Virus record (IMG/VR): IMGVR_UViG_3300020710_000008
Span: 291-64,290 of that record
Source: a virus
Taxonomy: Duplodnaviria > Caudoviricetes
Length of the DNA: 64,000 bases
Reading direction: 5' to 3' (one strand)
Below are positions 40,213-60,840 of the stretch, one piece after another (the stretch's first letter is position 1; each line of letters opens with the position of its first letter). Made by a program: the position numbers and the translations under genes. The notes beneath the pieces were generated by a model. The model saw only the letters and a list, made by a program, of their open reading frames with translations. It made no database searches and was not told the DNA's origin.

Positions 40213-40490
40213 CGTAGAGCCTCCAATTTTGTGAATAAGCTCTCTACTTCAGAGAGCCCTTCTGATAATTTATTCTTTTTACTCTCTAGTTCGGCTAAGA
40301 GCTTCTTTGATAATTCGTTTAGCTCTTCTTCAGACATAGTGGCAACATCATAACCCTCACCTTTGAGGCTATCGAGTATTTCTGTTACTTTATGTTCTTC
40401 TACAGCAAGAAGTTTTTTAAATTCATCTTGCTTTTTAGTGAGAGTTAGGACCTTTTTATTGAGGTCAGCGATTTCTTCATTGATGCCCAT
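40209..40490 (-). CDS. Small coiled-coil protein
   Basis: Heptad pattern; ATG 40490 after AGGAG. Confidence 0.6.
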   Translation of the reverse strand: MGINEEIADLNKKVLTLTKKQDEFKKLLAVEEHKVTEILDSLKGEGYDVATMSEEELNELSKKLLAELESKKNKLSEGLSEVESLFTKLEALR

Positions 40491-41652
40491 GTTTTTCTCC
40501 TGTGTTGAAATAGTGACCGCAATTAGGACATTGGACACCATCGTTTTGTAACTCGACTAAACGGTCAGTCAATAGCTGATACTCACTATTGAACTCAGAT
40601 ATCTTAATTTTCAAATTTTTCTGGGACTCCATAGATTCAAGGTAATTAGTTACCATAGTTAACAAGGTCTTGATGCCTTGAAGTTTTTCTATATTTTGAA
40701 TCCATTTATCACTATTAACTTTAGTTATTGCTCTAAAAGATTTGGCTTTATTGACTGATGTAGTATACTTATTAACTTTTGGAATTAACTCCATTAATTT
40801 AATAATACTAGCTGTACGAGGAATTTCAATAGAGGCCCCATTTAGGTAGTTATTTCTAGAATTGGCTGATCTTATGTAATTTCTAATAAGTCTGGCATGA
40901 TATAAAGCACTCTCTAGTTCATCAAGAGATGGGATAGGTCGCTTGATTCCGCTAAGAGCCCCCACTTTACGTTTAACAAGAGCAAGATGCTCTAAACTAT
41001 TTAGAGTGGCTTCTAAAGTATCACACTGTTCTGATAGGGCCTCTAGGGGCTTTGTGGCTTCATCAAATTCCGTTACTAATGAGGCTAACAATGCTCTTTT
41101 AAGTTCAGATTCTTGAATATCTGTGGCTATATATTTAGCAGTAGAAGTGAGTTCTGCATTCTTCAAAGAGGCTTGCTTCTTACCGGAGTTCAATTTCTCA
41201 GTAGAAGAGAATAAACCGAAGATTGCGTTAAGCTCATTGGGGCTTAGTTCCAACATGAATTGTTGACCAAATTGGCCAGCAAAAATAGGGTCCAATTTTA
41301 CCCCGCCTATATCCACAGAGCCACACTTAAGATCCTCCATAGCAGGAGGAATTCCGCCAGCTAATTTAGAAAATTCAGCATCTCCAATAGTGTAATTAGT
41401 GGTCTTAGCGTTTCTGGATAGGGCTATAACTTCACCTTCTTCTGGTTCCAGGGTTATATTAACCTCTTTCTCCCCATAGGTGATATGATTAGCTCCTACT
41501 TCATTCCTTAGAATCCCTCTAAGAGAACGTAGAATGGCCGACTTTCCACGATCCGAAGGCCCCACAATAACTGTGAAACCTTTAACGGATAGATGGAAAC
41601 TCTTCCAAGACTGGAAATGTCTACCAGATAGCTTAAATGACTTTCCCAGCAT
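40477..41652 (-). CDS. sbcC: SbcC/Rad50-like ATPase, N-terminal half (Walker A, coiled coil, Zn hook)
   Basis: FQSW, VGPSDRGKSAILR, GQF Q-loop, terminal CPNCG; no Walker B. Confidence 0.8.
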   Translation of the reverse strand: MLGKSFKLSGRHFQSWKSFHLSVKGFTVIVGPSDRGKSAILRSLRGILRNEVGANHITYGEKEVNITLEPEEGEVIALSRNAKTTNYTIGDAEFSKLAGGIPPAMEDLKCGSVDIGGVKLDPIFAGQFGQQFMLELSPNELNAIFGLFSSTEKLNSGKKQASLKNAELTSTAKYIATDIQESELKRALLASLVTEFDEATKPLEALSEQCDTLEATLNSLEHLALVKRKVGALSGIKRPIPSLDELESALYHARLIRNYIRSANSRNNYLNGASIEIPRTASIIKLMELIPKVNKYTTSVNKAKSFRAITKVNSDKWIQNIEKLQGIKTLLTMVTNYLESMESQKNLKIKISEFNSEYQLLTDRLVELQNDGVQCPNCGHYFNTGEKHGHQ

Positions 41653-42470
41653 TAATTGCTCCAAGTGTTTGGAAGTTTGAGCAAACTGGGGTTAGCCTCA
41701 AGCTTTTTGAATTCTTCGTACCTATCTACCAGATGAGCAAGAGGCTCTAACGTTCCAATAGTCCATCTAGTATAATTCTTATCCCCAAGCATTAAGGCGT
41801 GGAGCAAACCGACAGCGGGATCTGGACCCAGATCAAATTGTATGGAGGACAGATAAATAGTTTTGGGTAGGTCCGTCCTATAAGCAGAAGCCAAGGGATT
41901 AGCCTTAGTTCTATCATTTGACAAGAAGCTATGTCCAAAAGCTAAGCAATAACCCTTGGGGAGACAGAAAAAGAATTCGTTTTCTCTTTTTGTGGAGTAA
42001 AGGGTATAAGGGATAGGTTTCTTAATTGGTGTCTTATTAGACATTCTATTAGCTTTTTCTACCCATTCGGAGTCTTCAGGGACTAAAAGATTCTGACTTC
42101 CATCTCTCACAAAACGAAAAGTTCCTGAAATTTCTCCACCAGGGCTAATAGTTTTTCTTTTGAAAATATCCAACATAACACGTTCACGAAGATCGTATAT
42201 ATGACCATATTGATCCACTACTTTATAAGCTTTTCCACCTTCTTCTCTAGATTCAAGATCAATAATACGAAGAATAAAACCGCCATTCAATATTGTTTTG
42301 AATGGCATCTTATTGCAAGACCAGCCTCTTGCTCTTTCATTTAATTGAATATCATCTGAATCTACAGCAAAAGAAGAACGAGCCTTAATAGTTGAGCCAA
42401 GAACAGGACTATTATATACGTCCTTTACTTGGCTATATACATTTAAATGAGAGGGATTAGGATTGCTCAT
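41652..42470 (-). CDS. Hypothetical protein
   Basis: 272 aa; coupled at both ends. Confidence 0.65.
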   Translation of the reverse strand: MSNPNPSHLNVYSQVKDVYNSPVLGSTIKARSSFAVDSDDIQLNERARGWSCNKMPFKTILNGGFILRIIDLESREEGGKAYKVVDQYGHIYDLRERVMLDIFKRKTISPGGEISGTFRFVRDGSQNLLVPEDSEWVEKANRMSNKTPIKKPIPYTLYSTKRENEFFFCLPKGYCLAFGHSFLSNDRTKANPLASAYRTDLPKTIYLSSIQFDLGPDPAVGLLHALMLGDKNYTRWTIGTLEPLAHLVDRYEEFKKLEANPSLLKLPNTWSN

Positions 42471-42940
42471 CTGACTCTCTGACCATTAACATATAATTGA
42501 GTGCCAGGAATACCTTGAGTTCCTTTAGTTTCAGGATACACAATTACACCAGAGCGAAGTGGAGTAGGAACCCATTTGATTTCAGGAAGTTTAGTGCAAC
42601 TAGTAATAGCGTCACTTAAAATATTAGTATCAAAAACAAATGCCGTATCTCCAATTACTAAAGTATTCTGGCCAGTTTGATCAGTAACAATAATCAACTT
42701 ACCCGGAGGATCATCATTACCTACAATGTATTGCTCTACGCTGTACTGGTGTCCATTCCCCGCTGGAGCCCTTCTGATGGCCTCCTGGATATCAAAGGCG
42801 GGAAGTCTACCAGTAGAAGCCAGGATAGGCCCTACAGCCTTATCCTGGACATCTATGGTAACAGTGAGATTTTCTCCACTAGTAACAGTAAGGATATACT
42901 CACTGGCTCTTATTTTAATTCTAACACTAGACTCTAACAT
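42467..42940 (-). CDS. Hypothetical protein
   Basis: GGGGA SD downstream of recA. Confidence 0.6.
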   Translation of the reverse strand: MLESSVRIKIRASEYILTVTSGENLTVTIDVQDKAVGPILASTGRLPAFDIQEAIRRAPAGNGHQYSVEQYIVGNDDPPGKLIIVTDQTGQNTLVIGDTAFVFDTNILSDAITSCTKLPEIKWVPTPLRSGVIVYPETKGTQGIPGTQLYVNGQRVR

Positions 42941-42949
42941 GAGTCCCCC

Positions 42950-44209
42950 TTATAGGTCATCATCGTCAAAAGCGGTGACGCGAACTACATTTTCTTCTTC
43001 TTCAACGCTTTCAGAGTCACCAGCTAAGAATTTATCATTTTGAGTAATTTCAGTTGAATAACCACCCTTATCCTCTTCAATTGCGGCGGCTACAAGAACC
43101 TTTAAACGAGCCAAAACTTCAAAATCAGGCTCGGTTACTAGATTACGAATAGCTTCATCCTGAGAGTCGTAGGTAGCAATAGGCTTGTCCTCATTACCCA
43201 CAATATACTTCTTACCCTTATTTTTGATAAGGCCATAGTTACGAGCTAGCTCACGAACAGAAATCCAGTCATCTAGGCCGAACCCAGGACGAAGCCAAAG
43301 ATGATACTCACGATAACCACCAGTGGTGGCCTTGTTCTTGATTATACGAACTTTAACCTTAGTGGCAACATAGTCACCCTTATTATCACCCGGTTCTAGA
43401 ATAAAAGGATCTGGAGTTCCCGTAGCACTCTTGTAACCACCGGCCCTATAAGCCTTAGCTACATTAACTTCAATAGACACGGAAGGGATAAAACGAACTG
43501 AATTGCCTCCAGGCATAGTATAAGCTAGATTGGTGATAGAAGGGTATTTAACGGCTTGCATTGCTTCTTGGGTCATCTCAATTCTAGCACGAATCTGGTT
43601 AACCATGAGGAACAAGCAATCGTACTTCATAGCATAGGGCATGAGAATATCAAAGAACTTCTGCATACCTCTAGCATGTTCACCAACCTGAGCCTTCATA
43701 GCCTGACCACTCATGATGTCTTTTTCATCCACCATAGACTTCATACGAGGAATAGAATCAAATACGAATAGCTTAACTCCGGCCTTCATAAACACGATGG
43801 TTTGCTTGATAGCCTCATCCATGCTATTAGGTCTGTAGACAGCCAGAGCAGAGCGACTAGTGTCTACTCCGATGTCACGAAGATAATTACCTGTGCAAGT
43901 TCCCTCAAAATCGAAGATAACAACAGGCTCATCCTCGGACTTTTGATAAGCCTTAACGAATGAGTAGCAGAGTGTGGACTTACCGCCGTGTTCCTTACCA
44001 TGAATATGATAAACACGACCACCACGAGGAAGGCCCTTTAAGCGGAGTACGTTATCAAATACGATTGAGTTAGTGGGAGTGAATCTCTCATCAACATCGC
44101 ACTTTAGGACAGTTGGGCCATCCTCCCCCATGATGCTCAAAGCCTCTAGAAATGAGGACTTAACATCTTTTGAATCAAATGTTGCGTTTCTTAAAGTCTT
44201 CTTTGCCAT
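42950..44209 (-). CDS. recA: RecA/UvsX-like recombinase
   Basis: GLP.GGR...I.GKE.GGKST, FDFEG, VFDSI, NQIR, PGGN..RF..S, KNK. Confidence 0.92.
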   Translation of the reverse strand: MAKKTLRNATFDSKDVKSSFLEALSIMGEDGPTVLKCDVDERFTPTNSIVFDNVLRLKGLPRGGRVYHIHGKEHGGKSTLCYSFVKAYQKSEDEPVVIFDFEGTCTGNYLRDIGVDTSRSALAVYRPNSMDEAIKQTIVFMKAGVKLFVFDSIPRMKSMVDEKDIMSGQAMKAQVGEHARGMQKFFDILMPYAMKYDCLFLMVNQIRARIEMTQEAMQAVKYPSITNLAYTMPGGNSVRFIPSVSIEVNVAKAYRAGGYKSATGTPDPFILEPGDNKGDYVATKVKVRIIKNKATTGGYREYHLWLRPGFGLDDWISVRELARNYGLIKNKGKKYIVGNEDKPIATYDSQDEAIRNLVTEPDFEVLARLKVLVAAAIEEDKGGYSTEITQNDKFLAGDSESVEEEENVVRVTAFDDDDL

Positions 44210-44218
44210 ATCTACTCC

Positions 44219-45022
44219 TTAGATGGTTACGGTGATTTTAGTTAGTCTTTTCTTGGGTGGGACTCGTGCATCTTTAACACTAATACTGTAAACGGTAGGA
44301 GCAAATACAAACCAATAAGCAGGATTGTAAATAATCCCCTTCTTGACCATTCTTTCATTCCTGCCTTTACCCTTTTTAACATCTGTGAAATCAAATAGAG
44401 CAGCGGAAATTTTATCCGGCACATCATCAATTTCTTTACCCATTAACATATCTGATAAATATCTGCCGAATTGGGCTAGAAGGATAGCATCACAGGCATC
44501 TGAGTCAATACCTGGGAAGTCATCGGCTGGAGCATAATCATGGGATTTTGCTATATTTTCGTGTTTGTTATTTCCTTTAGCGGTCAGACCTAAGCATGAC
44601 CTCATGGTCATGGCGTTTACATGCATGACACAAATTTTAGAATAATCAGAACGATCCCTTATTTCTGACAACACCTTAGCATGGATGATTTTATTAATGG
44701 TATTTAAGTAGTCATTCCCAGGTGTTGGAGCCTCCATGACTATGATTAAGCCAGCATCCATAGCCCCGTTTTTCAGGACAGACTCAGTGATGTAATTGGC
44801 CATCATAACGGATCTAATCCAAGATGGAGCCTTTGAGTCATCAGGCTTTAAAGAGTTAATTGCAGTCCAAGTATAGGTATCTTTATTATTATCCATAATA
44901 GCTAGCCCTGTCCTACTAAGAGAGGGATCAATCCCTACAATAGTCCAGGAGATTTCATCGAATTCTGGTGGTAACTTTATTCTATCTTTTACACTTGGTT
45001 TTGGCTTTGCTACTTTGGCCAT
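44219..45022 (-). CDS. ruvC: RuvC-like Holliday junction resolvase
   Basis: VGIDPSLSRTG, VMEAP, DACDA. Confidence 0.75.
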   Translation of the reverse strand: MAKVAKPKPSVKDRIKLPPEFDEISWTIVGIDPSLSRTGLAIMDNNKDTYTWTAINSLKPDDSKAPSWIRSVMMANYITESVLKNGAMDAGLIIVMEAPTPGNDYLNTINKIIHAKVLSEIRDRSDYSKICVMHVNAMTMRSCLGLTAKGNNKHENIAKSHDYAPADDFPGIDSDACDAILLAQFGRYLSDMLMGKEIDDVPDKISAALFDFTDVKKGKGRNERMVKKGIIYNPAYWFVFAPTVYSISVKDARVPPKKRLTKITVTI

Positions 45023-45031
45023 GATTACCTC

Positions 45032-45073
45032 AAAAAATTGAGGCTATTGGATAAACGTCATCCAATAGCCTCA
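45032..45073 (-). terminator. Intrinsic terminator after the SSB-like gene
   Basis: 14-bp perfect stem TGAGGCTATTGGAT/ATCCAATAGCCTCA, 7-nt loop, followed by AUUUUUU on the minus strand. Confidence 0.8.
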
Positions 45074-45088
45074 GCACTATTATGGGAA

Positions 45089-45844
45089 TTACAAATCTTG
45101 ATTATCCCCATCTTCATCGCCATCGCTACCAATGGAAGAAATCAAAGCCTTCCATTCAAGCGGCGATAGTCTCTTACCAAGCTTTTTGGTCAATAGCACA
45201 CCATCTTCAAACTTGGCACAAGCTGCCTTAATTTCATCGGTAAGGCCCTTCTTCTTCCAACGAGCCTCAGAGGAAGCACGGCTAAACTTGTAGCCAATGC
45301 CATTCTCACGATGGGTCATAACAATATCAAAACCAGTGACATGCTCATCTTCCTGCACTAGAGCGGAGATATCCGAGAAATTGGTCTGAGAGAGATTAAC
45401 ATACTTGATCTCATACTCAGTAGCTTCAACTTCCTTGGTGTACTTTCCGGTCTTGGAGTTCGCGTTAGTGTAGTGAACCACCACAGCTACGAACTGGAGG
45501 TTTGGCTTGCCCAATGACTTGCAGCAAAGTCCCTCACCCTCATCAGAAGTAGTGCAACGGAAAGTGCCCTTCTTGTCAATGTAGTGATTGTGTGCTTTCT
45601 TGGTCTTCAAGAAAGGGACGATGGCAAAACGAGAGGCTGAACCCTTCTCAGGACGAAGACGGTCTAGACCATCCCCACGATACATGAGCTTTTCATCACC
45701 AAACTCGCAGTCATCGTCATCACTAACAACAACGTCAACCTTTTTCTTGTCCTTAGAAGAGAAATCATCATCATCTTCGATAGGCTTCTTACCCTTACCC
45801 TTTTGAACTACAACTTCCTCTTCGTCTTCAAACTTCTGCGCCAT
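45089..45844 (-). CDS. Putative single-stranded DNA-binding protein (gp32-like)
   Basis: Located beside recA/ruvC; H..C..CC cluster, aromatic core, acidic tail DGDEDGDNQDL, strong SD. Confidence 0.6.
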   Translation of the reverse strand: MAQKFEDEEEVVVQKGKGKKPIEDDDDFSSKDKKKVDVVVSDDDDCEFGDEKLMYRGDGLDRLRPEKGSASRFAIVPFLKTKKAHNHYIDKKGTFRCTTSDEGEGLCCKSLGKPNLQFVAVVVHYTNANSKTGKYTKEVEATEYEIKYVNLSQTNFSDISALVQEDEHVTGFDIVMTHRENGIGYKFSRASSEARWKKKGLTDEIKAACAKFEDGVLLTKKLGKRLSPLEWKALISSIGSDGDEDGDNQDL

Positions 45845-45903
45845 TTATGGCCTCCTTGTTAGATAATACTGGTTTTTTGAACTTTAAATTTGACAACGAT
45901 TGT

Positions 45904-47139
45904 CTAGAAAGGAATCTCTTCCTCTTCGTCATCATCAAAGGTAACTACCTTTTTCTTTGGCTTAGTTTCAGTCTTTTCTACCTTAACTTCTTCCTTTACT
46001 ACTACTGGAATTTCTGCATCATCGTCATCATCAAAAGTAATCTTTTTCTTTGACAAGGGGACAAGAGTGGCTTTACCGGCTTTTACTAAAATATCTCCAG
46101 CGAAGTCATCATGAAGTGTAGTAGTTTCAGCAGGAGCATGGCTCTCAGCTACAAAAGAATCAGGTTCTTGCATGACTATTTCTTCAGCCTCTACGGGTGG
46201 TAAAGGGGTGAAATCCCCTTGATAAGCGGCCATGAATGCCTCTCTGTCTTTTACTAAATCCGTTAATTCTTCAGCCGTTATCCCGTTAATGGTGATAAAT
46301 TTACCTAAATCCTCTTCGGAGACTTCTTCTGCTACTATAACAGCAGGAGAGGAGGATTCAATGATCTTATGAATGCCTTCAGGGACCTCTACTTGATCAG
46401 CCCTACGTCTTTCAACATAAGCGGGGTCTTCATCTAAATCATCAAAGCCATTATCAGGAGACTCTACAGGTTCAGAGTCCTCAGTAAAACTCCAATGTTT
46501 CTTAAGCAGAGGGAAGCTGTTATCACCAGCCGATCCTACCCCATTAAAGGGTAAATTTACAATAGATGCATTAGCTTGATCAGTGCCTAGCTTGTACTTC
46601 TCTTGAGCGATCTTCCTCATTTCTTTTAGATGAACCACCATGACCTCAACGGCGGATAAAAGTCCGTCAATATTAAGATCAGTGTCTCCAATTAGTCTAG
46701 AGAATTCAGATTCTGCCAAGGCTTTTTGAGTGGAGGCTGGAATCTTGACTCCTGCCTCTTTCAGCTTTTCTGAGATAGCGATTTGATACCATGCAGAAAA
46801 AGTTGCAAGTAGGTTGTTGCTTAAGTGGAGGGCAGATTTAAGCTTTCCCTGGAAATAGATAGCCTTCATCTGTGCTACTTCAATCTTATCCGTCACTTGC
46901 TGTAAGGCTGTAGATAGTTCTACTAGATAAGACTGTGCCCCACCTGGAGGAATAGCGGCCATCAATTCAATTCGATCAATGCCTTTAATCTCTTTGTTCA
47001 GGATATTGAAATAGTCTTCAAATTGATAAGAATTGGAATCGGTTTTGTAAGTGAGGCTAGTCTTAAGGTTTGTGATCTGGCCAAGAATAGCGGTATCTTT
47101 TAAAACCACTTCTGCTTTTAGTTCATTCAATAATTGCAT
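45904..47139 (-). CDS. Coiled-coil protein with long acidic tail (possible recombination mediator)
   Basis: Helical N-terminus; ends DDDEEEEIPF, resembling an SSB-type interaction tail. Confidence 0.5.
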   Translation of the reverse strand: MQLLNELKAEVVLKDTAILGQITNLKTSLTYKTDSNSYQFEDYFNILNKEIKGIDRIELMAAIPPGGAQSYLVELSTALQQVTDKIEVAQMKAIYFQGKLKSALHLSNNLLATFSAWYQIAISEKLKEAGVKIPASTQKALAESEFSRLIGDTDLNIDGLLSAVEVMVVHLKEMRKIAQEKYKLGTDQANASIVNLPFNGVGSAGDNSFPLLKKHWSFTEDSEPVESPDNGFDDLDEDPAYVERRRADQVEVPEGIHKIIESSSPAVIVAEEVSEEDLGKFITINGITAEELTDLVKDREAFMAAYQGDFTPLPPVEAEEIVMQEPDSFVAESHAPAETTTLHDDFAGDILVKAGKATLVPLSKKKITFDDDDDAEIPVVVKEEVKVEKTETKPKKKVVTFDDDEEEEIPF

Positions 47140-47486
47140 TAGCTCTCCGGTGTCTCTGAATTATTACTGAGAGAAGCGAGATGTTCTCTCATCTTTTTTA
47201 CACGAGCCTTTGCCTTAGTGATGGCAGCGGCAGCATCAGTCCCACTCATCTCTCCTGCTGCGTACTTAGCAATATTGAGGGATTCCCACATAGCTAAGTG
47301 CATGTCTAAACTTTGATTAACTACTTCCTCAATATTGTCGAAGCCCACACCTTCAGTTCCCTCCGGAACTTCAGCCTTCATGTTGAAAAAACGACTTTGG
47401 CCTGCACCATAACTGACATCTTTAATGTCAAGACTCAAGGTCATTCCCGTTATTGATAGACGCCTTTCGTTTCCACTCATTAACAT
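47139..47486 (-). CDS. Hypothetical protein
   Basis: AAGGAG SD. Confidence 0.6.
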   Translation of the reverse strand: MLMSGNERRLSITGMTLSLDIKDVSYGAGQSRFFNMKAEVPEGTEGVGFDNIEEVVNQSLDMHLAMWESLNIAKYAAGEMSGTDAAAAITKAKARVKKMREHLASLSNNSETPES

Positions 47487-50171: not shown

Positions 50172-50191
50172 CGTTCATCTCCTATGAGCTA

Positions 50192-52787: not shown

Positions 52788-52808
52788 TCACCAAGATAAG
52801 CCTTCATA

Positions 52809-53181: not shown

Positions 53182-53460
53182 TCATACTGCCTCAAAATAG
53201 GATACTATCCAGCCATTTTTGTACACTTTATGAAAATGAGTATTTTCACTAAACTGAGTTGGTAAAGTTACATCTTCTTTTAATTCGGTAATTGCTTCAA
53301 TGATTGTTAAAAATACATCGGTGCCTAGAAGAGTTTTGGACCCATTTTCATCTGTTTCTGTAACATGCACTCTTTTTTCCACAGACACTTTACCAGTTAA
53401 AATGGGGTGCTTTGACAGAATAAGATCCGTAGTATCAAAACAGAACTCTACAATTTTCAT
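53182..53460 (-). CDS. Hypothetical protein
   Basis: ATGA coupling. Confidence 0.55.
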   Translation of the reverse strand: MKIVEFCFDTTDLILSKHPILTGKVSVEKRVHVTETDENGSKTLLGTDVFLTIIEAITELKEDVTLPTQFSENTHFHKVYKNGWIVSYFEAV

Positions 53461-54236
53461 TTCATTTTCTTTCCAGCTTCATAGGCTATAACGAAAGCCG
53501 CACCTGTTTTCAACCAACCATTGAGCCTTTCACGTTTAACCCTAGCATCAGCATCTTTGACTAATCCATTTAAATTAGCTTCTCTGGCGACATGCTCTGC
53601 ATTAATGGCATCTTTCTCTGTAGATATCTGATTACCTTTTTGAACTTCAAGATTCAGCCCATCCACTTGTTTAGTTAAAGCTCCAGTGAGCCCAACTTGA
53701 GTAGTATAAGCGGTCTCCAACTGAGGAATACGGAGGCTTTCCTTATACCAAGTCCAAATTGTGGGTACATTCTTAGTTGGGGTAGTAGCTGATCCGAGCA
53801 TAGGATCTGTTCTAGGTTTTGGCACAGTAAGTGTGAATCTAACTCCGGAAGAAGCAATATCTGTTACAGCAACATTAACATCTGTAGGTGGAGCCGTGAC
53901 AGGAGCGGGTGGTGGATTATTGGCAACTTTGCCCTTCCACATCTCTACTTGATTCTTTAGGACAACATTGGAGGCAGTGAGAGCGTCTTTATCTTTCTGA
54001 TCAGCCGCAGCCTTGTCATTAAGGACTTGAAGCTGCTTCTTGAACTCATTGTCCTTAGCCTTTTCAGCGGCCTCTTGTTTATCTTTGTACCCACACCAAG
54101 CTCTCCACCCTTGCCATGCAACAGCAAGGAAGACACAAATGCAGATAATGATGAGATATTGCTTAATTACCATGCCTGCTTTGTTTAATCCAGCAGTTAC
54201 TCCATCCAATAGCGCCATTTTATCTCCTTTGGCCAA
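53457..54236 (-). CDS. Membrane-anchored coiled-coil protein (i-spanin-like topology)
   Basis: N-terminal transmembrane segment then long heptads; function uncertain. Confidence 0.45.
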   Translation of the reverse strand: MAKGDKMALLDGVTAGLNKAGMVIKQYLIIICICVFLAVAWQGWRAWCGYKDKQEAAEKAKDNEFKKQLQVLNDKAAADQKDKDALTASNVVLKNQVEMWKGKVANNPPPAPVTAPPTDVNVAVTDIASSGVRFTLTVPKPRTDPMLGSATTPTKNVPTIWTWYKESLRIPQLETAYTTQVGLTGALTKQVDGLNLEVQKGNQISTEKDAINAEHVAREANLNGLVKDADARVKRERLNGWLKTGAAFVIAYEAGKKMK

Positions 54237-55308
54237 GAATTCTAACGTAATTCAAGCAGCCGGTAGCGGTGGAATCTAGGGGGTTAGCCGATGCTCTAGC
54301 TTCACCAACCTTGAATCTCACATCCAAGTTACCCATGAAGACTTCATTAAATAAGTCCATGAAACCAACTGCCTTAGTAGTTCCACCTGAGATTACTACA
54401 GGGATGGTCTCGGCAATTTCAGTACGATGTTCATTCATACCGAAGAATACGTTTGTGGCGTGAACCAGCTTAGTTAGAAGATCACGATACATCATGCTAA
54501 TAGCCTCAGCTTGGCGTTCTGTCTTGGTATCATCAGAGTCCTGCTTGTCCAGCACTAGACCAGAAGTTACATTAACACCACGCTCTTTCAAAAGGGTAAT
54601 GTGAGACACCAGAGAACTAGTCTGATCAGCGGCAGCATTATCAATAAAATCCCCGCCAAAAGGCAAAGAGAATACGCGAACAGGTAGGCCCTTATAGACT
54701 AGGGCTACGTTAGTCATACCGGCACCAAAGCTAATAAATAAGCCGGTAAGTGGTAGTTCCCCTTTCTTGGGAGTAATGGTTTCAGCATAACCAATGGCAG
54801 CGGCCTCATTCAAAGGCTTAGCTGTGAAGCCAAGATCAGTGATTAGATTCTTGAAAAATCCTGTATGGAAAGTTAGTCCAATATCCTGGGAGGGTTTGAA
54901 ATTAGCAGGCTTGTCTGCATCAAAGAGAGGACCGGGGACAGAGAAAGCCACTAGCTCTTTCTCAACCGCAGGCTTGCCTAGAATTTGAGATAGGATAAGC
55001 TTGAGGATTTCCTTACCATCTTCTTCCTTGGGGCTAATAAAGCCCTTGGAAAGCGGTCTACGAAGCTCTCCTCCTAGAACACCAACTAGGTTGATGGCAT
55101 CATTACCAACAACATAGAGTTCGTTGGAGCCTTCAATGTACTCAACACCAGAAATGTCAAGAGTTGGAGCATTATCAAGGGAGAGAGCTAGGAAGCAGTC
55201 TCTAACGGAAGATAGGTCTACCGTCTTTCCTTGGTCGGATTTTGCAGATACGATATACGCAGTTCCAATATCCACTCCGCATCCGTTGAATTCTTTGTTA
55301 TCAGCCAT
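54220..55308 (-). CDS. Actin-fold ATPase (MreB/ParM/FtsA superfamily)
   Basis: GVDIGT, LNEAAA, SFGAGMTN, GGDFID, ISGGT: phosphate-1, connect, phosphate-2 and adenosine motifs. Confidence 0.8.
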   Translation of the reverse strand: MADNKEFNGCGVDIGTAYIVSAKSDQGKTVDLSSVRDCFLALSLDNAPTLDISGVEYIEGSNELYVVGNDAINLVGVLGGELRRPLSKGFISPKEEDGKEILKLILSQILGKPAVEKELVAFSVPGPLFDADKPANFKPSQDIGLTFHTGFFKNLITDLGFTAKPLNEAAAIGYAETITPKKGELPLTGLFISFGAGMTNVALVYKGLPVRVFSLPFGGDFIDNAAADQTSSLVSHITLLKERGVNVTSGLVLDKQDSDDTKTERQAEAISMMYRDLLTKLVHATNVFFGMNEHRTEIAETIPVVISGGTTKAVGFMDLFNEVFMGNLDVRFKVGEARASANPLDSTATGCLNYVRILGQRR

Positions 55309-55311
55309 TTC

Positions 55312-56418
55312 TTACTTCTCCTTTGAAGAAATTACTACACCGTCTTTTATTTCCATTTTGATTACTGAATCCTTACGCTTTCGTTTGTCTTGCTTGGGGT
55401 CATTATCAGACTTCAGAGGAATCATATCATCCGTGTCTAGTTCCTTAATACTCTTCGGAGAGATTCTCCATTGCTCTCCGTGCTTTAAAATTACATCTTT
55501 ATACGATTTAATTTCAGGATCATCCTTGAATAAGACCTCCATGATAATTTGCTTAAGAACGAAATACAGAATAAAAATGCTCTTAGGCTTCTTTATATTC
55601 TCATCCTTAATTTCTTTTAATATGGTAGTTATCATATCTTTAGGGTCTCGGACTCCACTATACATTAGGCGTTTGGCTACAGCGGTAATAGTTTTTTGCC
55701 TACCAAACTTGACTTTTTTCTCTTCATTTTCGCCATGATTGTCCTCTTCTACTACATGAGGAGGACTATAGACAATATCTTTCTGAAGAGTCATGAGAGC
55801 TTCTTCAGTGAATTCCTCAACATATTCCTTCACCACATCTGAATAATAGAAAACTCTTTGCTCGGTGGGGACGTAGGATAAATCTTTTAGATTGTGGATG
55901 GGGGTCTCAATGAAGAGTCTTCTAGTCTTTAAATCAATAGAGATAAGGGCATAATCTCTCTCCATGTTAATTACTGTGCCACAAAAGCCACGGTCCAAGC
56001 CATCTAGAATACGCACAAATGAACCAATAACTATAGTTGTTGGGTCCATACGGAACCTATCTTCACAGTCTTTAATTAGCCCTTGAACATAGTCATCTTC
56101 TACCGCTAGAGCCTTATCAATTCTTTGTTGTTCACCTTCACATAGAATACCCAGAACTCCAGTAATAGTTCTGAACTTGGTTAGCTCCTTCTTAACATTC
56201 GTTCTAATAAATACATAAGAAGATGTTTGCAGTGTGTATACATTTAGGTCTCTTTCTCCAACAGGAATAAATACCTCGCAGGCACCACCTTTAATAATAT
56301 CCTTTAGGGCATTACCTATTCTACGGATAATGTTTTCAGCGGTCTTTTCAGATCGAATTTCCATTAAAAACCATTTTTGACCTACTAATTGACTTACATC
56401 CCCATAAACTAATATCAT
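55312..56418 (-). CDS. NusG/Spt5-like protein (NGN + KOW) with C-terminal extension
   Basis: WFLM...EVFIP...SYVFI...TGVLG; GSFVRILDG..RGF.G.V KOW motif. Confidence 0.65.
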   Translation of the reverse strand: MILVYGDVSQLVGQKWFLMEIRSEKTAENIIRRIGNALKDIIKGGACEVFIPVGERDLNVYTLQTSSYVFIRTNVKKELTKFRTITGVLGILCEGEQQRIDKALAVEDDYVQGLIKDCEDRFRMDPTTIVIGSFVRILDGLDRGFCGTVINMERDYALISIDLKTRRLFIETPIHNLKDLSYVPTEQRVFYYSDVVKEYVEEFTEEALMTLQKDIVYSPPHVVEEDNHGENEEKKVKFGRQKTITAVAKRLMYSGVRDPKDMITTILKEIKDENIKKPKSIFILYFVLKQIIMEVLFKDDPEIKSYKDVILKHGEQWRISPKSIKELDTDDMIPLKSDNDPKQDKRKRKDSVIKMEIKDGVVISSKEK

Positions 56419-57395
56419 ACTTCTCCTATAATTTCTGCACCAAGCATACCAGATAGTTCGCTGGGGCCAAGTTCACGAGGTTGAACGATTACACATCTAG
56501 GATTTACCGGTTCTTTAACCATAGATATTTCATGGAATTTCATATCAGTAGCTTCTTCAGAATTAGCTAGTTCTTTTAATAAAAGCGGTAGGCTTTCAGA
56601 TGGTAAATCCCTAGCTCCTTTCCATTTTAGAAAAATGGAGGTCACATTCTTATAATTACTGAGATGTTGGGGAATTGCATTATTAAAATACATTAAAGAA
56701 TAAGAGGTAAATAACTGATCTACTATATCATCAGCACTAGCCTCAATGGTTCTAACCAATTTTATAGCTTCAGGGAGTGACAAACTAAATAACTCTTTAA
56801 CTCGATTGTCCAGTTCTAGAGGTTCAAATCTGACAGACCCATTGATCTCCCCTCTCATGGCAGTTAAAGAGGCACCATGAAGCAGGGTTAATACTTTACC
56901 GGGATTGCCTTCGGCTCTTATACAAAGCTGGTATAACCCATTTAGGTCATAGTGTATAGATTTTTCTTGTGCTACTTTGCATATAAGCCCACGAAGGCTC
57001 TCCTCATTTAACAGACCAAGCTGGATTCTATAAGCTCTTGTCTTAAGGGTCTGAGGAAGTCTGTAATAATTTTGAGTTGTAATGACTACAAAATGCTTGT
57101 CAGAGTCAATCAGTTTCGCAATTTGTTCAGTTGTGGAATGATTAATATCCGCTATATTTTCTAGAATTAGGCATTCAGGAATATCAGCAATATCTAGCTC
57201 ATCGGGTCTGATTACAGCTACTTCCCCGAAGTGACTAAGGAAAATTTTAGCAACAGTAGTTTTGCCAACTCCGCTAGGGCCATCTATGATATAGGCCCTA
57301 GGAGCTAGTTCTTTTTTCAATAAAATAGCCCCTAAATTTTGAAGGGCTATTTTATTTCCAGCGATGTCGTTTAAAGATTGCGGCTTGTAAAACAA
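56415..57395 (-). CDS. Clamp-loader / Pol III gamma-tau-like AAA+ subunit
   Basis: Y.PQSL.DI.GN, GPSGVGKTT; Walker B and SRC motifs degenerate. Confidence 0.7.
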   Translation of the reverse strand: MFYKPQSLNDIAGNKIALQNLGAILLKKELAPRAYIIDGPSGVGKTTVAKIFLSHFGEVAVIRPDELDIADIPECLILENIADINHSTTEQIAKLIDSDKHFVVITTQNYYRLPQTLKTRAYRIQLGLLNEESLRGLICKVAQEKSIHYDLNGLYQLCIRAEGNPGKVLTLLHGASLTAMRGEINGSVRFEPLELDNRVKELFSLSLPEAIKLVRTIEASADDIVDQLFTSYSLMYFNNAIPQHLSNYKNVTSIFLKWKGARDLPSESLPLLLKELANSEEATDMKFHEISMVKEPVNPRCVIVQPRELGPSELSGMLGAEIIGEV

Positions 57396-57416
57396 GATCA
57401 GTCTCCAGTCTACTTC

Positions 57417-58715
57417 TTAACTCTCCATGGTTTCTTTAACAAGATTGAAATAACGGAACAAGGAAGAGTTCATTCCATAATACCAAAGATTCCAGTAATC
57501 CTTAACGGTGATGCTTCCAGTAGCCTTGATGAACTCTTTAAGAGTCTTCTTGAAGTTGTCTAGATTGATGCCTTTCACGATAAAGCCTGGATTATCAGGG
57601 GCTAAGGTATTTGAAGTAACTTCAATAGAGAAGTCCTTGATTAAGATCATCCTAGAATTACTACCTGAAACCTTCTCAAATAGGCGACAGAAGGTCATAG
57701 GAGCGCCGGAGAGGAGCAGGGTATGGTTGTCATCGTTCAGCATCTCTGTGGCCTCGTATGGGGTCTTGAGCGTTACTGTGGATGCCACGGTTGGGGCAAG
57801 GCGAACTGAAAGAGGACCACCAAAGGCAAGGTAGTCTTCCCCGCCACCATTTTCAGTAAAGGCGAAGTAGTTCTTGAGGATCTTTTCCATATAGGATTGT
57901 TCATTTGGTTCTACACCATTAACCCCATGCATACGAATTTCAGCAGCACGAGCATTGAAGTCATCATGGAACTCAGAGGCGTCTACTAGCTTACGGAGGA
58001 AGGTCTCTGTCCACTGAGGACCCATGAGGTATTCCTCTTCAGGTCTCCAGGCTTCAGTAGCAACATCTAGAGAGCCCAGAGTAAGAAGAAGGTCTCCAAC
58101 CACATTCTTAGAGGGAGAATTGATCCACACACGCTTGAGATTGAAGTCTACTACCACTTGGAACTGCTTGCGAGTAATAGTATCCAATTCCTCGACATCA
58201 GCAGTAATTTGCGCCTTAATGTCAGAAGGCTGATATTTGAAGGGGGAACCATAGGAGTAGGCCAAAGACTCCTTCTTAGAATTCATATCATGGACATCTT
58301 CCCAATCGAACCCAATCATCCAGAAAGCGTATACGCCTTCAGCAATTTTCCAGTTTTCGGGATTATTATCCCACAGTTTGTTATCTTGAAGATCAATAGT
58401 CCCTACACCTGGGTCCTCTAGGGTGTCATCTTCAGCATTATAGACCCAAGGCTTGTCTGTGAAGATAAGACGAAGAGCTTGGGGGTCTAGCACATCTGCT
58501 TTACCGGCCTTGTTAGCCACAATTTCTTCTACGTCACCAAGGCGAGGTTGATCAAATGGGGCTAGACCAATGGAATGATCATGGGTATTGAGAGCCTGTG
58601 CCTGTGCCTTGAATGGCATAAAATCCCAGCCATCAGCTTCAAGCTTGATCTTAAAAGCTTCTTCTTCAGATATTAGGGATAGGACTGTCCATGTCCCCTT
58701 AGCAAACATTGTCAT
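57417..58715 (-). CDS. Hypothetical protein (432 aa)
   Basis: Long ORF with GGAGG SD and TATAAT upstream. Confidence 0.75.
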   Translation of the reverse strand: MTMFAKGTWTVLSLISEEEAFKIKLEADGWDFMPFKAQAQALNTHDHSIGLAPFDQPRLGDVEEIVANKAGKADVLDPQALRLIFTDKPWVYNAEDDTLEDPGVGTIDLQDNKLWDNNPENWKIAEGVYAFWMIGFDWEDVHDMNSKKESLAYSYGSPFKYQPSDIKAQITADVEELDTITRKQFQVVVDFNLKRVWINSPSKNVVGDLLLTLGSLDVATEAWRPEEEYLMGPQWTETFLRKLVDASEFHDDFNARAAEIRMHGVNGVEPNEQSYMEKILKNYFAFTENGGGEDYLAFGGPLSVRLAPTVASTVTLKTPYEATEMLNDDNHTLLLSGAPMTFCRLFEKVSGSNSRMILIKDFSIEVTSNTLAPDNPGFIVKGINLDNFKKTLKEFIKATGSITVKDYWNLWYYGMNSSLFRYFNLVKETMES

Positions 58716-58893
58716 TAATTACCTCCACGGAAAAATTATAATTAGTTACGACTGAATAATCAGGGTCTTCATAGGCTAGTTTGAGTTGGGATATCAGAGA
58801 TTCTAACTCTTCTTCATTTAAGATGGTCGGCTCTTCAATTTTAGCTAGTAGAAAAACTTCTGGTGCTACTGGAAACATAACTGATTGTTGCAT
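58699..58893 (-). CDS. Hypothetical protein
   Basis: GGAG SD, operon packing. Confidence 0.5.
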   Translation of the reverse strand: MQQSVMFPVAPEVFLLAKIEEPTILNEEELESLISQLKLAYEDPDYSVVTNYNFSVEVINDNVC

Positions 58894-58896
58894 AGG

Positions 58897-59625
58897 TTAC
58901 TCCACTCCCTCCAATACTCGTTGCAGGGCTTCTTTTTTCACTCTGGTCTTCAAACAATCTGAAGGATCAGAGTCAGGACAAGTTAAGGGTACCACTTTCA
59001 TAGACTTAACCGTATAAGATAAAATTTGCATGGATTTATTGCCAGCTTCGTCATTATCATACATCAAGTAAATGGTCTTGACCCCCAGTAGTCTTAGATA
59101 TTCTTCATGCTTCTTTCCAATGTTTTTGGTCAAGGAAGACATGATAGGAAGATCGGGGGCCATAGCTTTGGCAGCAAGGATATCGAATGGGCCTTCCACT
59201 AGAATAACATAGCCGCATTGAATAATTTTCGCCAAAGTCTCGGGAGAATTACCTAACCAGATAGGCCCTAAGAAGTCTTCTTTACTAGTTCCAATAGAAA
59301 AATATTTAGAAGGCCCGAACATGGTGTGCAAGGGTTTAGTTTGAGCCCTAATTTTTCCTTCAGTGTCAATCTCAGGAAATACAAACATAGGCCCTGGAAA
59401 TAGTTTTTTAGGAATATAAAGGAAATTAAGGTCTTTAATGGGTTCGAATAATTCTTCTTCTGTTACAATCCATTTTCTATGTTCTATGATTTTTTGGGCC
59501 GTAACTTGAATAGGATTTCGCTCTAGTTTATTGTAAATCCCAACAGATCGCTCAATAAGTTTACCTACATCCTGCCACCAGCCTTCATCAGCCTTTAGTT
59601 TCAGAGCGTTCATCCAATCCCTCAA
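58897..59625 (-). CDS. TOPRIM-domain DNA primase (short form)
   Basis: ILVEGPFD.L, YLMYDNDEAG, DPSD. Confidence 0.8.
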   Translation of the reverse strand: MRDWMNALKLKADEGWWQDVGKLIERSVGIYNKLERNPIQVTAQKIIEHRKWIVTEEELFEPIKDLNFLYIPKKLFPGPMFVFPEIDTEGKIRAQTKPLHTMFGPSKYFSIGTSKEDFLGPIWLGNSPETLAKIIQCGYVILVEGPFDILAAKAMAPDLPIMSSLTKNIGKKHEEYLRLLGVKTIYLMYDNDEAGNKSMQILSYTVKSMKVVPLTCPDSDPSDCLKTRVKKEALQRVLEGVE

Positions 59626-59842
59626 TCTTCATAATACTGTCTTTATGGGCTCTAAATAGTAATCTGCCTTGAGCATCATAGCCTCTGATATGATCTTTAG
59701 ACTCTTCAATATGAGCAATTTCAAAATTCTCATAAACTTTGAATTTAAATATTTCCGTATCTTTCAAATTAGTAGGATCATAACGGCTAACTTCCATTGT
59801 CTTTATTCTCCAAAGTATCAGGAATTTTACGTTGCTCAACAT
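59588..59842 (-). CDS. Hypothetical protein
   Basis: Likely start at MEVSRY. Confidence 0.45.
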   Translation of the reverse strand: MLSNVKFLILWRIKTMEVSRYDPTNLKDTEIFKFKVYENFEIAHIEESKDHIRGYDAQGRLLFRAHKDSIMKIEGLDERSETKG

Positions 59843-60233
59843 TAGAAATCAACTGCTCCTTAGACTGTTCGTAAGCTTCAGGATCATCAAATTGGCCAAG
59901 TACCCAAAGTAAGGTTGCAATATCTCTATACTCTCTCAGCATTCTTTGTGTATTGTGAATATCATCAGAAAAATCTTGAGATAGCTCTTCCTTTGTTCTG
60001 GATGGCTGAAATAGTTTTTGGTTTAAGCAATTATCAGGGTCATCAGTACCACATTTTAGGCACTTGTAAGCACCAGTGGCTTCATCGTATCTGACAAAGG
60101 CACAGTTCTCCCCCTTAGGCTTCATTTTATTCTTGAAGAACCTTTTTTTATGCCTAGTTATAAGTTCCTTCAAGCGGTCAAGAATCTCTTTCTCGGTCTT
60201 GACCTTAATTTTTACTTCCGGATTTAAGTTCAT
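59787..60233 (-). CDS. Hypothetical protein with four Cys
   Basis: C...CLKC...C. Confidence 0.55.
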   Translation of the reverse strand: MNLNPEVKIKVKTEKEILDRLKELITRHKKRFFKNKMKPKGENCAFVRYDEATGAYKCLKCGTDDPDNCLNQKLFQPSRTKEELSQDFSDDIHNTQRMLREYRDIATLLWVLGQFDDPEAYEQSKEQLISNVEQRKIPDTLENKDNGS

Positions 60234-60840
60234 CTAGTTCTTCCTGGCGAAGCTCTCTAAGAAGCGGCCCGTTTTCTACAACAAACACTTTATCAGCAGA
60301 GGTAGCCAAGGCCGCTTGCTGAGTGATAGCTAATATACAATACCCATGTTCATCACAAAGCGTTTTCATCATTTCAGAAACTTTAGGAATAAATTCTGGT
60401 GATACATTATTCATAGATTCATCCAAAACGATTAACTTGGCTAGTTTGAATCTTTGAATCATAATGACACGAAGGAGGAAGGAGATAACATTGACCACCC
60501 CTCCACCAACTGTCTCTATGGGAGGAGCCGCGAATCCTCGTTTTTCCACAAGAATTTTATAAGACTCCCCGCGAACTCCTTCTTTTCTTTCAATGATTAG
60601 CTTGTAATCGTCATCAAAAATGAGTTTCAACCCATCAGAAACTACCGATTCAATTTTACCTATGCCATTGGCTGAAATGACTTGAATAGCCTTATCCATT
60701 ACCCCAATAGCTTTTGTATGTAGTATTTTATCGGCCTCAATAGATACTAATTTCGCCTTGTTCTTGGCTATATTAGATATGTGGTAACCGAGAAGAGATT
60801 CAGCCTCTTTTTTCTTGGCTCTTAGTTCAAGCATGGACAT
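60205..60840 (-). CDS. sbcC: SbcC/Rad50-like ATPase, C-terminal half (coiled coil, signature, Walker B)
   Basis: VGGGV signature-like motif, LIVLDE Walker B, ITQQ at the H-loop position, ADKVF; no Walker A. Confidence 0.75.
   Translation of the reverse strand: MSMLELRAKKKEAESLLGYHISNIAKNKAKLVSIEADKILHTKAIGVMDKAIQVISANGIGKIESVVSDGLKLIFDDDYKLIIERKEGVRGESYKILVEKRGFAAPPIETVGGGVVNVISFLLRVIMIQRFKLAKLIVLDESMNNVSPEFIPKVSEMMKTLCDEHGYCILAITQQAALATSADKVFVVENGPLLRELRQEELDELKSGSKN

What the first reader, a model, noticed from the sequence alone, without database searches (positions are those of the whole stretch)
40477..60840. SbcC/Rad50 split at the zinc hook into two genes about 18.5 kb apart
Seen: 40477..41652 has Walker A, Q-loop, coiled coil and ends CPNCGHYFNTGEKHGHQ. 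60205..60840 has a coiled coil, signature-like VGGGV and Walker B, with Gln at the His-switch position. Each has its own start. A 93-aa coiled-coil gene follows the N-half. Known: an ABC head needs both halves, normally on one chain. Inference: a heteromeric SbcC with unequal arms, in which the small coiled-coil protein might complete the arm. It is the second split enzyme in the window.
Basis: partly seen in the sequence, partly recalled or inferred. Interest (0 to 1): 0.7.

Follow-up and report, generated by a model that had tools for sequence, protein, structure and literature searches.

The report
Phage Rad50/SbcC built from separate proteins
This uncultured freshwater giant phage makes its Rad50/SbcC-type DNA-end-processing ATPase from separately encoded pieces, cut just after the zinc hook and 18.5 kb apart; the cut is real and shared by hundreds of phage lineages, and it does not fit the textbook single folded-back chain.

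Summary
Gene 41652..40477 (391 aa) carries Walker A, the Q-loop, about 200 aa of helices and an invariant CPxCG 17 residues before its stop. Gene 60840..60205 (211 aa) carries a 70-aa helix, a GGG signature, Walker B and Gln at the His-switch. Each gene has its own ribosome-binding site.

Family profiles place both halves with Rad50. The N-half tail matches the P. furiosus Rad50 zinc hook (E 3.5e-6). The C-half matches the Rad50 C-terminal head (E 1.5e-11). An Mre11/SbcD nuclease gene (39156..38149) lies 1.3 kb downstream of the N-half.

The split is conserved. All 22 N-half relatives stop after the hook, and nearly all of the 150 nearest C-half clusters are about 200 aa and stand alone. Both halves occur on every related contig that is at least half complete, 2 to 132 kb apart. 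Rare single chains join them in swapped order. Complete relatives hold no other Rad50-like gene.

A 93-aa helix-loop-helix protein (40490..40209) always travels with one of the halves. It is probably a third subunit, but the complex prediction gave only weak support.

How the long outgoing arm is paired remains open.

This scan has already noted the same split in at least 52 other genomes. I found no paper that describes it.

The parts
40477..41652 (-). N-half of the Rad50/SbcC-type ATPase (391 aa): head lobe I, about 200 aa of helical arm, zinc-hook motif at the C-terminus
   Evidence: PHROG 16465 'exonuclease' 1.5e-12. The family profile matches the P. furiosus Rad50 hook 6zff at E 3.5e-6.
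41539..41562 (-). Walker A (GPSDRGKS, residues 31-38)
   Evidence: G31, G36, K37 and S38 are invariant in 22 homologues.
41272..41274 (-). Q-loop glutamine (Q127 in DPIFAGQ)
   Evidence: Invariant in 22 homologues.
40516..40530 (-). CPNCG zinc-hook motif (C375-G379), 17 residues before the stop
   Evidence: C375, P376 and C378 are invariant and G379 is at least 90% conserved. Aligned to CPVCG of the P. furiosus Rad50 hook. In 20 systems the chain ends 6-24 residues from the first Cys of the motif.
40209..40490 (-). 93-aa helix-loop-helix protein, probable third subunit; overlaps the N-half stop by 14 nt
   Evidence: Complex prediction: weak support.
60205..60840 (-). C-half of the Rad50/SbcC-type ATPase (211 aa): coiled-coil stub plus head lobe II
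   Evidence: PHROG 15167 6.6e-18. The family profile matches Rad50 3aux at E 1.5e-11 over positions 6-204.
60496..60510 (-). Signature-like motif VGGGV (residues 111-115)
   Evidence: G112, G113 and G114 are at least 90% conserved in 51 homologues. It replaces the SGG of canonical Rad50.
60418..60435 (-). Walker B LIVLDE (residues 136-141)
   Evidence: D140 and E141 are invariant in 51 homologues.
60319..60321 (-). Gln174 at the H-loop (His-switch) position
   Evidence: Aligned to His of EcfA. 46 of the 51 aligned C-half sequences have His; 5, this one included, have Gln.
38149..39156 (-). Mre11/SbcD-family nuclease (335 aa)
   Evidence: Pfam Metallophos 1.1e-7, above the cut-off. The family profile matches Mre11 4hd0 at 3.7e-19 and T. 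maritima SbcD 2q8u at 2.3e-18, and the DxH, GD, GNHD, H and GHxH motifs are invariant.
42950..44209 (-). UvsX/RecA-type recombinase: conserved upstream neighbour of the N-half (context)
   Evidence: Pfam RecA 2e-19. The same position is kept in related loci.

Best explanation
The phage encodes an Mre11-Rad50 (SbcCD-type) DNA-end and hairpin-processing complex whose Rad50/SbcC subunit is assembled from separate polypeptides.

The N-half supplies Walker A, the Q-loop, a helical arm of about 200 aa and the CPxCG hook at its very C-terminus. The C-half supplies a coiled-coil stub, a GGG signature, Walker B, the D-loop and the switch residue (Gln here).

Inferred mechanism: the two halves join non-covalently into one ABC-type head, with the C-half stub pairing with the base of the N-arm. 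Two such heads clamp ATP and DNA together with an SbcD dimer, and the terminal Cys pairs of two N-halves share a zinc ion. The 93-aa helix-loop-helix protein is probably a third subunit bound to the helical arm. The complex would serve recombination-dependent replication and repair alongside the neighbouring UvsX and RuvC-like genes.

Shown here: motifs, family assignment, conservation of the cut, co-occurrence, and fused permutants. Inferred: physical assembly, zinc binding, arm pairing and activity.
For: 1. Complementary motif sets, neither sufficient alone.
2. The N-half family profile has the P. furiosus Rad50 zinc hook as its best solved match (6zff E 3.5e-6, 1l8d E 5.3e-5), aligned through CPxCG. 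The C-half profile has Rad50 as its best match (3aux E 1.5e-11, 3qkr_B E 2.5e-10) over its whole length, while SMC scores weaker at 2e-7.
3. The C-half model (pLDDT 95.7) superposes on the C-terminal head chains of two-chain SMC and Rad50 constructs.
4. The SbcD neighbour belongs to the Mre11 family, with all metal-ligand motifs.
5. The cut is conserved. All 22 N-half homologues are 362-428 aa and end after CPxCG. Among 1.84 billion cluster representatives, 268 match the C-half at E <= 1e-10, and nearly all of the best 150 are stand-alone proteins of about 200 aa.
6. Co-occurrence: both halves are in Tunturiibacter phage Tunturi_5, Microbacterium phage Magritte, LR745208 and B. cereus prophage phBC6A51. 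Among the related viral contigs I checked for a distant C-half, it was found on all six that are at least 50% complete, 2-132 kb from the N-half.
7. In more distant phages the order N-half, SbcD, small protein, C-half sits within about 4 kb.
8. Fusion evidence: P0061 (647 aa) and P0068 (672 aa) carry the C-half, then the N-half, then the arm, and end in CPxC on one chain.
9. Complete relatives (G004 with terminal repeats, Tunturi_5) have no other AAA_23 or SMC_N-type gene.
10. Small protein: homologues sit directly after the N-half or directly before the C-half in every layout seen. The complex prediction with the small protein as partner gave weak support: score 0.37 against a best control of 0.00. 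The runs agree in at least 83% of contacts and the partner pLDDT is at least 75. The mark was reached by 58 of 80 solved complexes and 2 of 110 mismatched pairs, but at 0.60 or under by only 7 of those 80 solved complexes and by both mismatches that passed. My own alignments were used, so these counts hold only roughly.
Against: - No direct evidence of assembly, zinc binding or activity.
- For this protein alone, Pfam AAA_23 and AAA_15 score below their cut-offs, and the C-half has no Pfam hit.
- The signature motif is GGG, not SGG, and the switch His is Gln here, so ATP turnover could be slow or altered.
- The arm has no full returning strand. The Walker A to hook distance varies from 269 to 473 aa, while the small protein (77-97 aa) and the C-half (202-225 aa) stay constant, r = 0.17. 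The textbook antiparallel intramolecular coiled coil therefore cannot form as such.
- The N-half model is of low confidence (pLDDT 65.7, pTM 0.27).
- Fold comparison alone cannot separate Rad50 from SMC or RecN.
- Magritte's N-half lacks the Cys pair.
Confidence: 0.85

Rival explanations
1. The N-half and C-half form the Rad50-type head as above, but the 93-aa helix-loop-helix protein is not part of the ATPase arm. It would instead be an adaptor or regulator (for example bridging SbcD and the coiled coil, as the Mre11 Rad50-binding helices do) or an unrelated conserved neighbour.
For: The protein is a hairpin of two helices of about 40 aa rather than one long helix. Its size does not follow arm length. 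Its profile matches only generic helical bundles in the PDB, and it has no Pfam or PHROG family. The complex score was only weak. The fused permutants P0061 and P0068 do not obviously contain it.
Against: It is kept next to the N-half or the C-half in three different gene orders across distant phages. It is translationally coupled to the N-half here by a 14-nt overlap. The SbcD proteins keep their own conserved C-terminal helices, so it is not simply a detached Mre11 tail.
Confidence: 0.3
2. The two genes encode independent ABC or SMC-like proteins that each work with some other partner. Their joint presence in the window would then be coincidental.
For: They lie 18.5 kb apart with no shared operon. 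Single-sequence searches give only generic ABC-transporter matches.
Against: Each lacks half of the ATP site. The halves co-occur in the related genomes examined, are adjacent in distant clades and are fused in P0061 and P0068. Complete relatives have no other candidate half.
Confidence: 0.04
3. A broken or decaying SbcC gene, or an assembly artefact, rather than a functional split.
For: The split form looks like a truncated SbcC and has been annotated piecemeal, for example 'Exonuclease SbcC' plus 'Chromosome segregation ATPases' in phBC6A51.
Against: The open frames are intact, the catalytic motifs are invariant and each gene has its own ribosome-binding site. The same cut point recurs in hundreds of 50%-identity clusters. 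Contigs from metagenome runs of 2012-2020 are identical over the junction.
Confidence: 0.02
4. The pieces are joined after translation (split intein) or at the RNA level into one canonical chain.
For: A relative (L016) carries an intein in the N-half, so inteins do visit this gene.
Against: Only 6-24 residues remain from the first hook Cys to the chain end, which is too short for an N-intein, and the C-half starts directly with its coiled-coil helix. Joining would also not supply the missing returning strand. The L016 intein is a complete one at Walker A, not at the cut.
Confidence: 0.02

Closest known systems
Canonical Mre11-Rad50 / SbcCD (P. furiosus and M. jannaschii Rad50-Mre11, E. coli SbcCD, phage T4 gp46/gp47)
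   Same: ABC-type head with Walker A and the Q-loop in one segment and signature, Walker B and the switch in the other. CPxCG hook. Mre11/SbcD partner with all phosphoesterase motifs. Placement in a phage recombination and replication module.
   Different: The chain is cut 6-24 residues after the hook and the pieces are encoded up to 132 kb apart. The C-half has only a helix of about 70 aa, so there is no full antiparallel returning strand. The signature is GGG instead of SGG. The switch is Gln in this phage. A small extra helix-loop-helix protein is present.
Laboratory two-chain Rad50 and SMC head constructs (PDB 1f2t/1f2u, 1ii8, 3qkr, 1xew, 3kta)
   Same: The N- and C-terminal head segments are made as separate chains that assemble into an active ATPase head. 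The C-half model superposes best on exactly these C-terminal chains, and the profile matches 3qkr_B over its whole length.
   Different: Those are engineered truncations lacking the arm and hook. Here the split is natural, and the N-piece keeps the whole arm and the hook.
Single-chain circularly permuted forms found here (P0061, P0068)
   Same: The same C-half and N-half families, and the same terminal CPxC.
   Different: The halves are fused in the order C-half then N-half on one chain of about 650 aa. In the window they are separate genes.
Mre11/Rad50 fusion proteins (Mimivirus R555, Bacillus phage 0305phi8-36; Yoshida et al. 2011, PMC3175470)
   Same: Non-canonical gene architectures of the MR pair in viruses. 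That paper notes that in the Bacillus phage fusion one P-loop NTPase segment 'was not observed', which may be the same kind of split.
   Different: Those are fusions of the nuclease with the ATPase. The paper does not describe a Rad50 split at the hook. I did not examine 0305phi8-36 itself.

Membership tests
Rad50/SbcC (ABC-type ATPase of the Mre11-Rad50 complex) | Bipartite ABC head: Walker A and Q-loop in the N-terminal segment; signature, Walker B, D-loop and H-loop in the C-terminal segment | tested here: met
   All motifs are present but spread over two polypeptides. The signature is GGG rather than SGG, and the H-loop is Gln here (His in 46 of the 51 aligned C-half sequences).
Rad50/SbcC (ABC-type ATPase of the Mre11-Rad50 complex) | Zinc hook CxxC at the end of the outgoing coiled-coil helix | tested here: met
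   CPxC is invariant in 22 homologues. The profile matches the P. furiosus Rad50 hook 6zff at E 3.5e-6 and 1l8d at E 5.3e-5. Zinc binding itself cannot be tested here.
Rad50/SbcC (ABC-type ATPase of the Mre11-Rad50 complex) | One chain folding back into a long intramolecular antiparallel coiled coil that links the hook to the head | tested here: not met
   The chain ends 17 residues from the first hook Cys. The C-half has a helix of only about 70 aa, against about 200 aa in the N-arm. Arm length varies by 200 aa with no matching change in the other pieces.
Rad50/SbcC (ABC-type ATPase of the Mre11-Rad50 complex) | Sequence-profile membership | tested here: inconclusive
   For this protein, Pfam AAA_23 scores 18.9 bits against a cut-off of 27, and the C-half has no Pfam hit. 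Relatives' N-halves pass AAA_23. The family profiles have Rad50 as their best PDB match.
Rad50/SbcC (ABC-type ATPase of the Mre11-Rad50 complex) | Mre11/SbcD nuclease partner | tested here: met
   Gene 39156..38149. The profile matches Mre11 4hd0 at 3.7e-19, and the metal-ligand motifs are invariant. Physical binding was not tested.
Rad50/SbcC (ABC-type ATPase of the Mre11-Rad50 complex) | ATP-dependent DNA-end or hairpin nuclease activity of the complex | not testable with these tools
   Needs biochemistry.
SMC / RecN / MukB-type ABC ATPases | Hinge dimerisation domain (not a CxxC hook) at the arm apex, with kleisin-type partners | tested here: not met
   The arm ends in CPxCG with no hinge domain. 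The partner gene is Mre11/SbcD. The C-half profile scores SMC more weakly than Rad50 (2e-7 against 1.5e-11). Fold search alone does not separate the families.
Split-intein-joined protein | N-intein after the N-extein and C-intein before the C-extein | tested here: not met
   Only 6-24 residues remain from the first hook Cys to the chain end, and the C-half begins with its coiled coil.

The most novel reading that the evidence does not exclude
In this large phage family the Rad50 arm is a single outgoing strand that ends in the hook. It would be stabilised either by folding on itself with the small hairpin protein or by pairing in parallel with the arm of the second protomer. The zinc site would then be a C-terminal clasp rather than the apex of a folded-back chain. 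If so, an intramolecular antiparallel coiled coil is not needed for an Mre11-Rad50 machine to work, and head-hook communication must operate differently from current models.
Probability: 0.3. Interest if true: 0.8.

Novelty: new variant of a known kind. Interest (0 to 1): 0.62.

Why it matters
Rad50/SbcC is described from phage T4 to humans as one chain that runs out to a zinc hook and folds back on itself. How the hook and arm talk to the ATPase head is still an open question.

A natural, widespread form with the chain cut at the hook and no full returning strand gives several things:
- A test of which parts of that architecture are needed.
- Naturally separable pieces for biochemistry and structure work.
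- Culturable systems to work in: Tunturiibacter phage Tunturi_5, Microbacterium phage Magritte and the B. cereus prophage phBC6A51.

It also matters for annotation. The halves are currently labelled 'exonuclease', 'ATPase', 'EcfA2', 'chromosome segregation ATPase' or 'hypothetical', so phages with this form can look as if they lack SbcC.

Tried and rejected
I used the search for related loci and the genome search on handles instead.
- Megablast of 40000..45000 against the phage collection gave no match.
- Single-sequence PDB searches gave only generic ABC or coiled-coil hits. Family profiles were needed.
- Foldseek with the low-confidence N-half model gave no match at E <= 0.001, and the weak rows mixed RecN, SMC, RecF and Rad50 heads.
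- The small-protein profile against the PDB gave only designed helical bundles and generic coiled coils, so there is no sequence link to the descending Rad50 arm. It has no Pfam, PHROG or NCBIfam family.
- NCBIfam gave only sub-threshold hits for all four proteins.
- Literature: four full-text searches found no paper describing a Rad50/SbcC split at the hook. The jumbo-phage papers I read treat SbcC as one protein.
- Sequencing runs: no RNA holder is listed, so nothing can be said on expression.
- Split-intein, pseudogene and artefact readings were considered and rejected (see the rival explanations).
- A C2H2-type intramolecular zinc site using the His residues in the tail (GH...HGH) was considered. 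These His residues are absent from Tunturi_5 and many distant members, so only the Cys pair is universal.
- I did not examine Bacillus phage 0305phi8-36, which is named in earlier notes of this scan.


Full report
**What is in the sequence**

All genes in 38-64 kb lie on the minus strand.
- Gene 41652..40477 encodes 391 aa. Its ATG overlaps the stop of the upstream gene (TAATG), and GGAG lies 8 nt upstream. The database copy of this protein and all its relatives start at this Met.
- It carries Walker A GPSDRGKS (residues 31-38), a Q-loop Gln127 in DPIFAGQ, and a helical region. It ends in CPNCG plus 12 more residues.
- Gene 60840..60205 encodes 211 aa, with GAGGG 5 nt upstream of its ATG. It carries VGGGV (111-115), Walker B LIVLDE (136-141) and AITQQ.
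- Gln174 in AITQQ aligns with the H-loop His of EcfA-type ABC ATPases and with the His of 46 of the 51 aligned C-half sequences.
- A 93-aa gene starts at ATG 40490 with its own GGAG. It overlaps the last 14 nt of the N-half gene and ends at 40209.

**Family assignment**

Single-sequence searches are weak.
- Pfam AAA_15 and AAA_23 score below their cut-offs for the N-half, and the C-half has no Pfam hit.
- PHROGs gives an 'exonuclease' family (1.5e-12) for the N-half and a 211-position 'ATPase' family (6.6e-18) for the C-half.

Profiles are clearer.
- An alignment of 22 N-half homologues (A1) has as its best solved match the P. furiosus Rad50 zinc hook (6zff E 3.5e-6, 1l8d E 5.3e-5). The match runs through the last arm helix and CPxCG. 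Weaker matches go to Rad50, SMC and OLD heads at the P-loop.
- An alignment of 51 C-halves (A2) matches M. jannaschii Rad50 best (3aux E 1.5e-11, positions 6-204). It also matches the C-terminal chain of the P. furiosus two-chain head construct (3qkr_B, 2.5e-10). SMC heads score 2e-7, and ABC transporters align only from Walker B to the H-loop.
- The AF2 model of the C-half is confident (pLDDT 95.7): helix 3-74 followed by an alpha/beta lobe. It superposes best on the C-terminal head chains of SMC and Rad50 two-chain constructs.
- The N-half model is poor (pLDDT 65.7, pTM 0.27). It shows a beta-rich P-loop lobe, then helices 153-234, 243-273, 282-311 and 314-370, then a short hairpin at the Cys pair.

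**The nuclease partner**

Gene 39156..38149 (335 aa) passes Pfam Metallophos. A profile of 16 homologues matches Mre11 and SbcD structures: 4hd0 at 3.7e-19 and T. maritima 2q8u at 2.3e-18. The DxH, GD, GNHD, H and GHxH motifs are invariant.

The surrounding genes are a recombination and replication set. They include a UvsX/RecA recombinase (44209..42950), a RuvC-like resolvase, an SNF2 helicase, a Toprim primase and a clamp loader.

**The cut is conserved, not an accident**

- All 22 N-half homologues found among 5.8 billion proteins are 362-428 aa. All end 6-24 residues from the first Cys of an invariant CPxC.
- A search of 1.84 billion cluster representatives with the C-half gave 2012 hits at E <= 1e-3 and 268 at E <= 1e-10. 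Nearly all of the best 150 are stand-alone proteins of about 200 aa (a few are shorter fragments), and none is a canonical full-length SbcC.
- Both halves are present as separate genes in four annotated records. These are Tunturiibacter phage Tunturi_5 (gp181 and gp14, 108 kb apart), Microbacterium phage Magritte (genes 155 and 2), the uncultured phage LR745208 (about 7 kb apart) and B. cereus prophage phBC6A51.
- In phBC6A51 the genes run BC1852 'Exonuclease SbcC' (ends in CPLC plus a short His-containing tail), two small genes, BC1855 'Chromosome segregation ATPases', one more gene, then SbcD.
- Of 23 related viral contigs, ten lacked a nearby C-half and were searched whole. All six that CheckV rates at least 50% complete hold one, 2 to 132 kb away. 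One of them is a complete 299,875-bp genome with terminal repeats. The four without a hit are fragments rated 10-49% complete.
- Complete relatives contain no other AAA_23 or SMC_N-type gene. The split pair is therefore their only Rad50-like ATPase, in a group of phages where SbcCD is described as practically universal (PMC7824862).
- Contigs from four freshwater or lake metagenome runs (2012, 2016, 2020) cover 40150..41700 with no differences and no gaps. Two of these runs may be the source of this DNA.

**Gene orders and a natural fusion**

- In the window's own clade the order is UvsX, (a 272-aa gene), N-half, small protein, a variable slot (NUDIX and hemerythrin here), then SbcD. The C-half lies far away.
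- In more distant phages (L018, L020-L023, L025-L028) the order is N-half, SbcD, sometimes one or two further genes, small protein, C-half, all within about 4 kb.
- Two of the nearest C-half relatives, P0061 (647 aa) and P0068 (672 aa), are single chains. The C-half comes first and is followed directly by an N-half with Walker A, a long helical region and a terminal CPxC.
- This is a fusion of the two families in swapped order. It is independent evidence that they act as one head, and even there the hook sits at the chain end with no returning strand.

**The small protein**

- Homologues of 74-104 aa share a helix (about 40 aa), a Gly-containing loop and a second helix (about 35 aa).
- They always sit directly after the N-half or directly before the C-half.
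- A three-chain complex prediction with this protein as the scored partner gave weak support: score 0.37 against a best control of 0.00. The runs agree in at least 83% of contacts, and the partner pLDDT is at least 75.
- The mark was reached by 58 of 80 solved complexes and 2 of 110 mismatched pairs. At 0.60 or under it was reached by only 7 of those 80 solved complexes and by both mismatches that passed. My own alignments were used, so these counts hold only roughly, and no interface was reported.
- I read this protein as a probable third subunit, at about even to 60% odds.

**What does not fit the textbook**

Across 20 systems the distance from Walker A to the hook runs from 269 to 473 aa. 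The small protein stays at 77-97 aa and the C-half at 202-225 aa. Across 11 systems the arm-length to small-protein correlation is r = 0.17.

The other two pieces therefore cannot supply a residue-for-residue returning strand. The arm is also broken by conserved Pro-containing turns and takes uncompensated insertions of about 40 aa. It must fold on itself, bundle with the small protein, or pair with the second N-half. I could not decide between these with the jobs available.

**Details and limits**

- The Gln at the switch position is shared with the closest relative and three others of the 51 aligned sequences. It is a lineage quirk rather than a family feature.
- The GGG signature, by contrast, is family-wide.
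- Magritte's N-half has no Cys pair.
- No assembly, zinc binding or activity has been shown.

**Prior knowledge**

- Four full-text searches found no description of a Rad50/SbcC split at the hook.
- Yoshida et al. 2011 (PMC3175470) noted that in the Mre11/Rad50 fusion of Bacillus phage 0305phi8-36 one P-loop segment 'was not observed'. That may be an early glimpse of the same thing.
- Within this scan, notes on at least 52 other genomes describe the same split, three-piece layouts and the permuted single-chain form. I re-derived the split, the Mre11-between-halves layout and the permuted form from my own searches.
- This window is thus a further, well-documented member of an apparently unpublished variant of a known machine.

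Noticed in passing
L016:5998-8277 (also L015): A relative's N-half gene is interrupted right after Walker A GKS by an in-frame insert of about 352 aa with no stops. Pfam finds Hom_end_hint (1.3e-16) and LAGLIDADG homing-endonuclease domains, so this is an intein in the P-loop of the split Rad50.
   Followed up: partly
proteins P0061 and P0068: Single-chain circularly permuted Rad50/SbcC: C-half first, then the N-half, the arm and a terminal CPxC.
   Followed up: partly
L032 (NC_004820.1, B. cereus prophage phBC6A51, 3697-7874): A long-sequenced prophage carries the same split. It is annotated as 'Exonuclease SbcC' (518 aa, ending just after a CPLC motif), two small genes, 'Chromosome segregation ATPases' (211 aa), one further gene and 'Exonuclease SbcD'.
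   Followed up: partly
window 39128..40212: NUDIX hydrolase (40212..39766), a 96-aa ORF and a hemerythrin-domain protein (39547..39128) sit between the small gene and SbcD. In relative L007 the small gene abuts SbcD directly, so this interval looks like a variable cargo slot.
   Followed up: no
window 41652..42470: A 272-aa protein of unknown function (PHROG 12487, 2.9e-10) lies between UvsX and the N-half. Among the related loci it was matched only in L006.
   Followed up: no
window 54220..55308: Actin-fold protein matching Pfam Volactin (5.8e-47) inside the replication module.
   Followed up: no
window 45039..45073: A strong terminator-like hairpin (16-bp stem plus a T run) on the minus strand, between the 251-aa gene and the RuvC-like gene. 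Terminator-like sites are enriched in 38-45 kb: 13 found against 4.8 expected.
   Followed up: no
window 40209..41652: The same stretch is held by 24 freshwater, lake and sediment metagenome runs dated 2012-2020, at 89-100% of the sampled words. Some runs may be the source or belong to one campaign. The phage appears to be a persistent freshwater one.
   Followed up: partly
L004:4980-6032 (Microbacterium phage Magritte gene 155): This N-half homologue (350 aa) has no Cys pair at its end, so it is a hook-less member of the split family.
   Followed up: no
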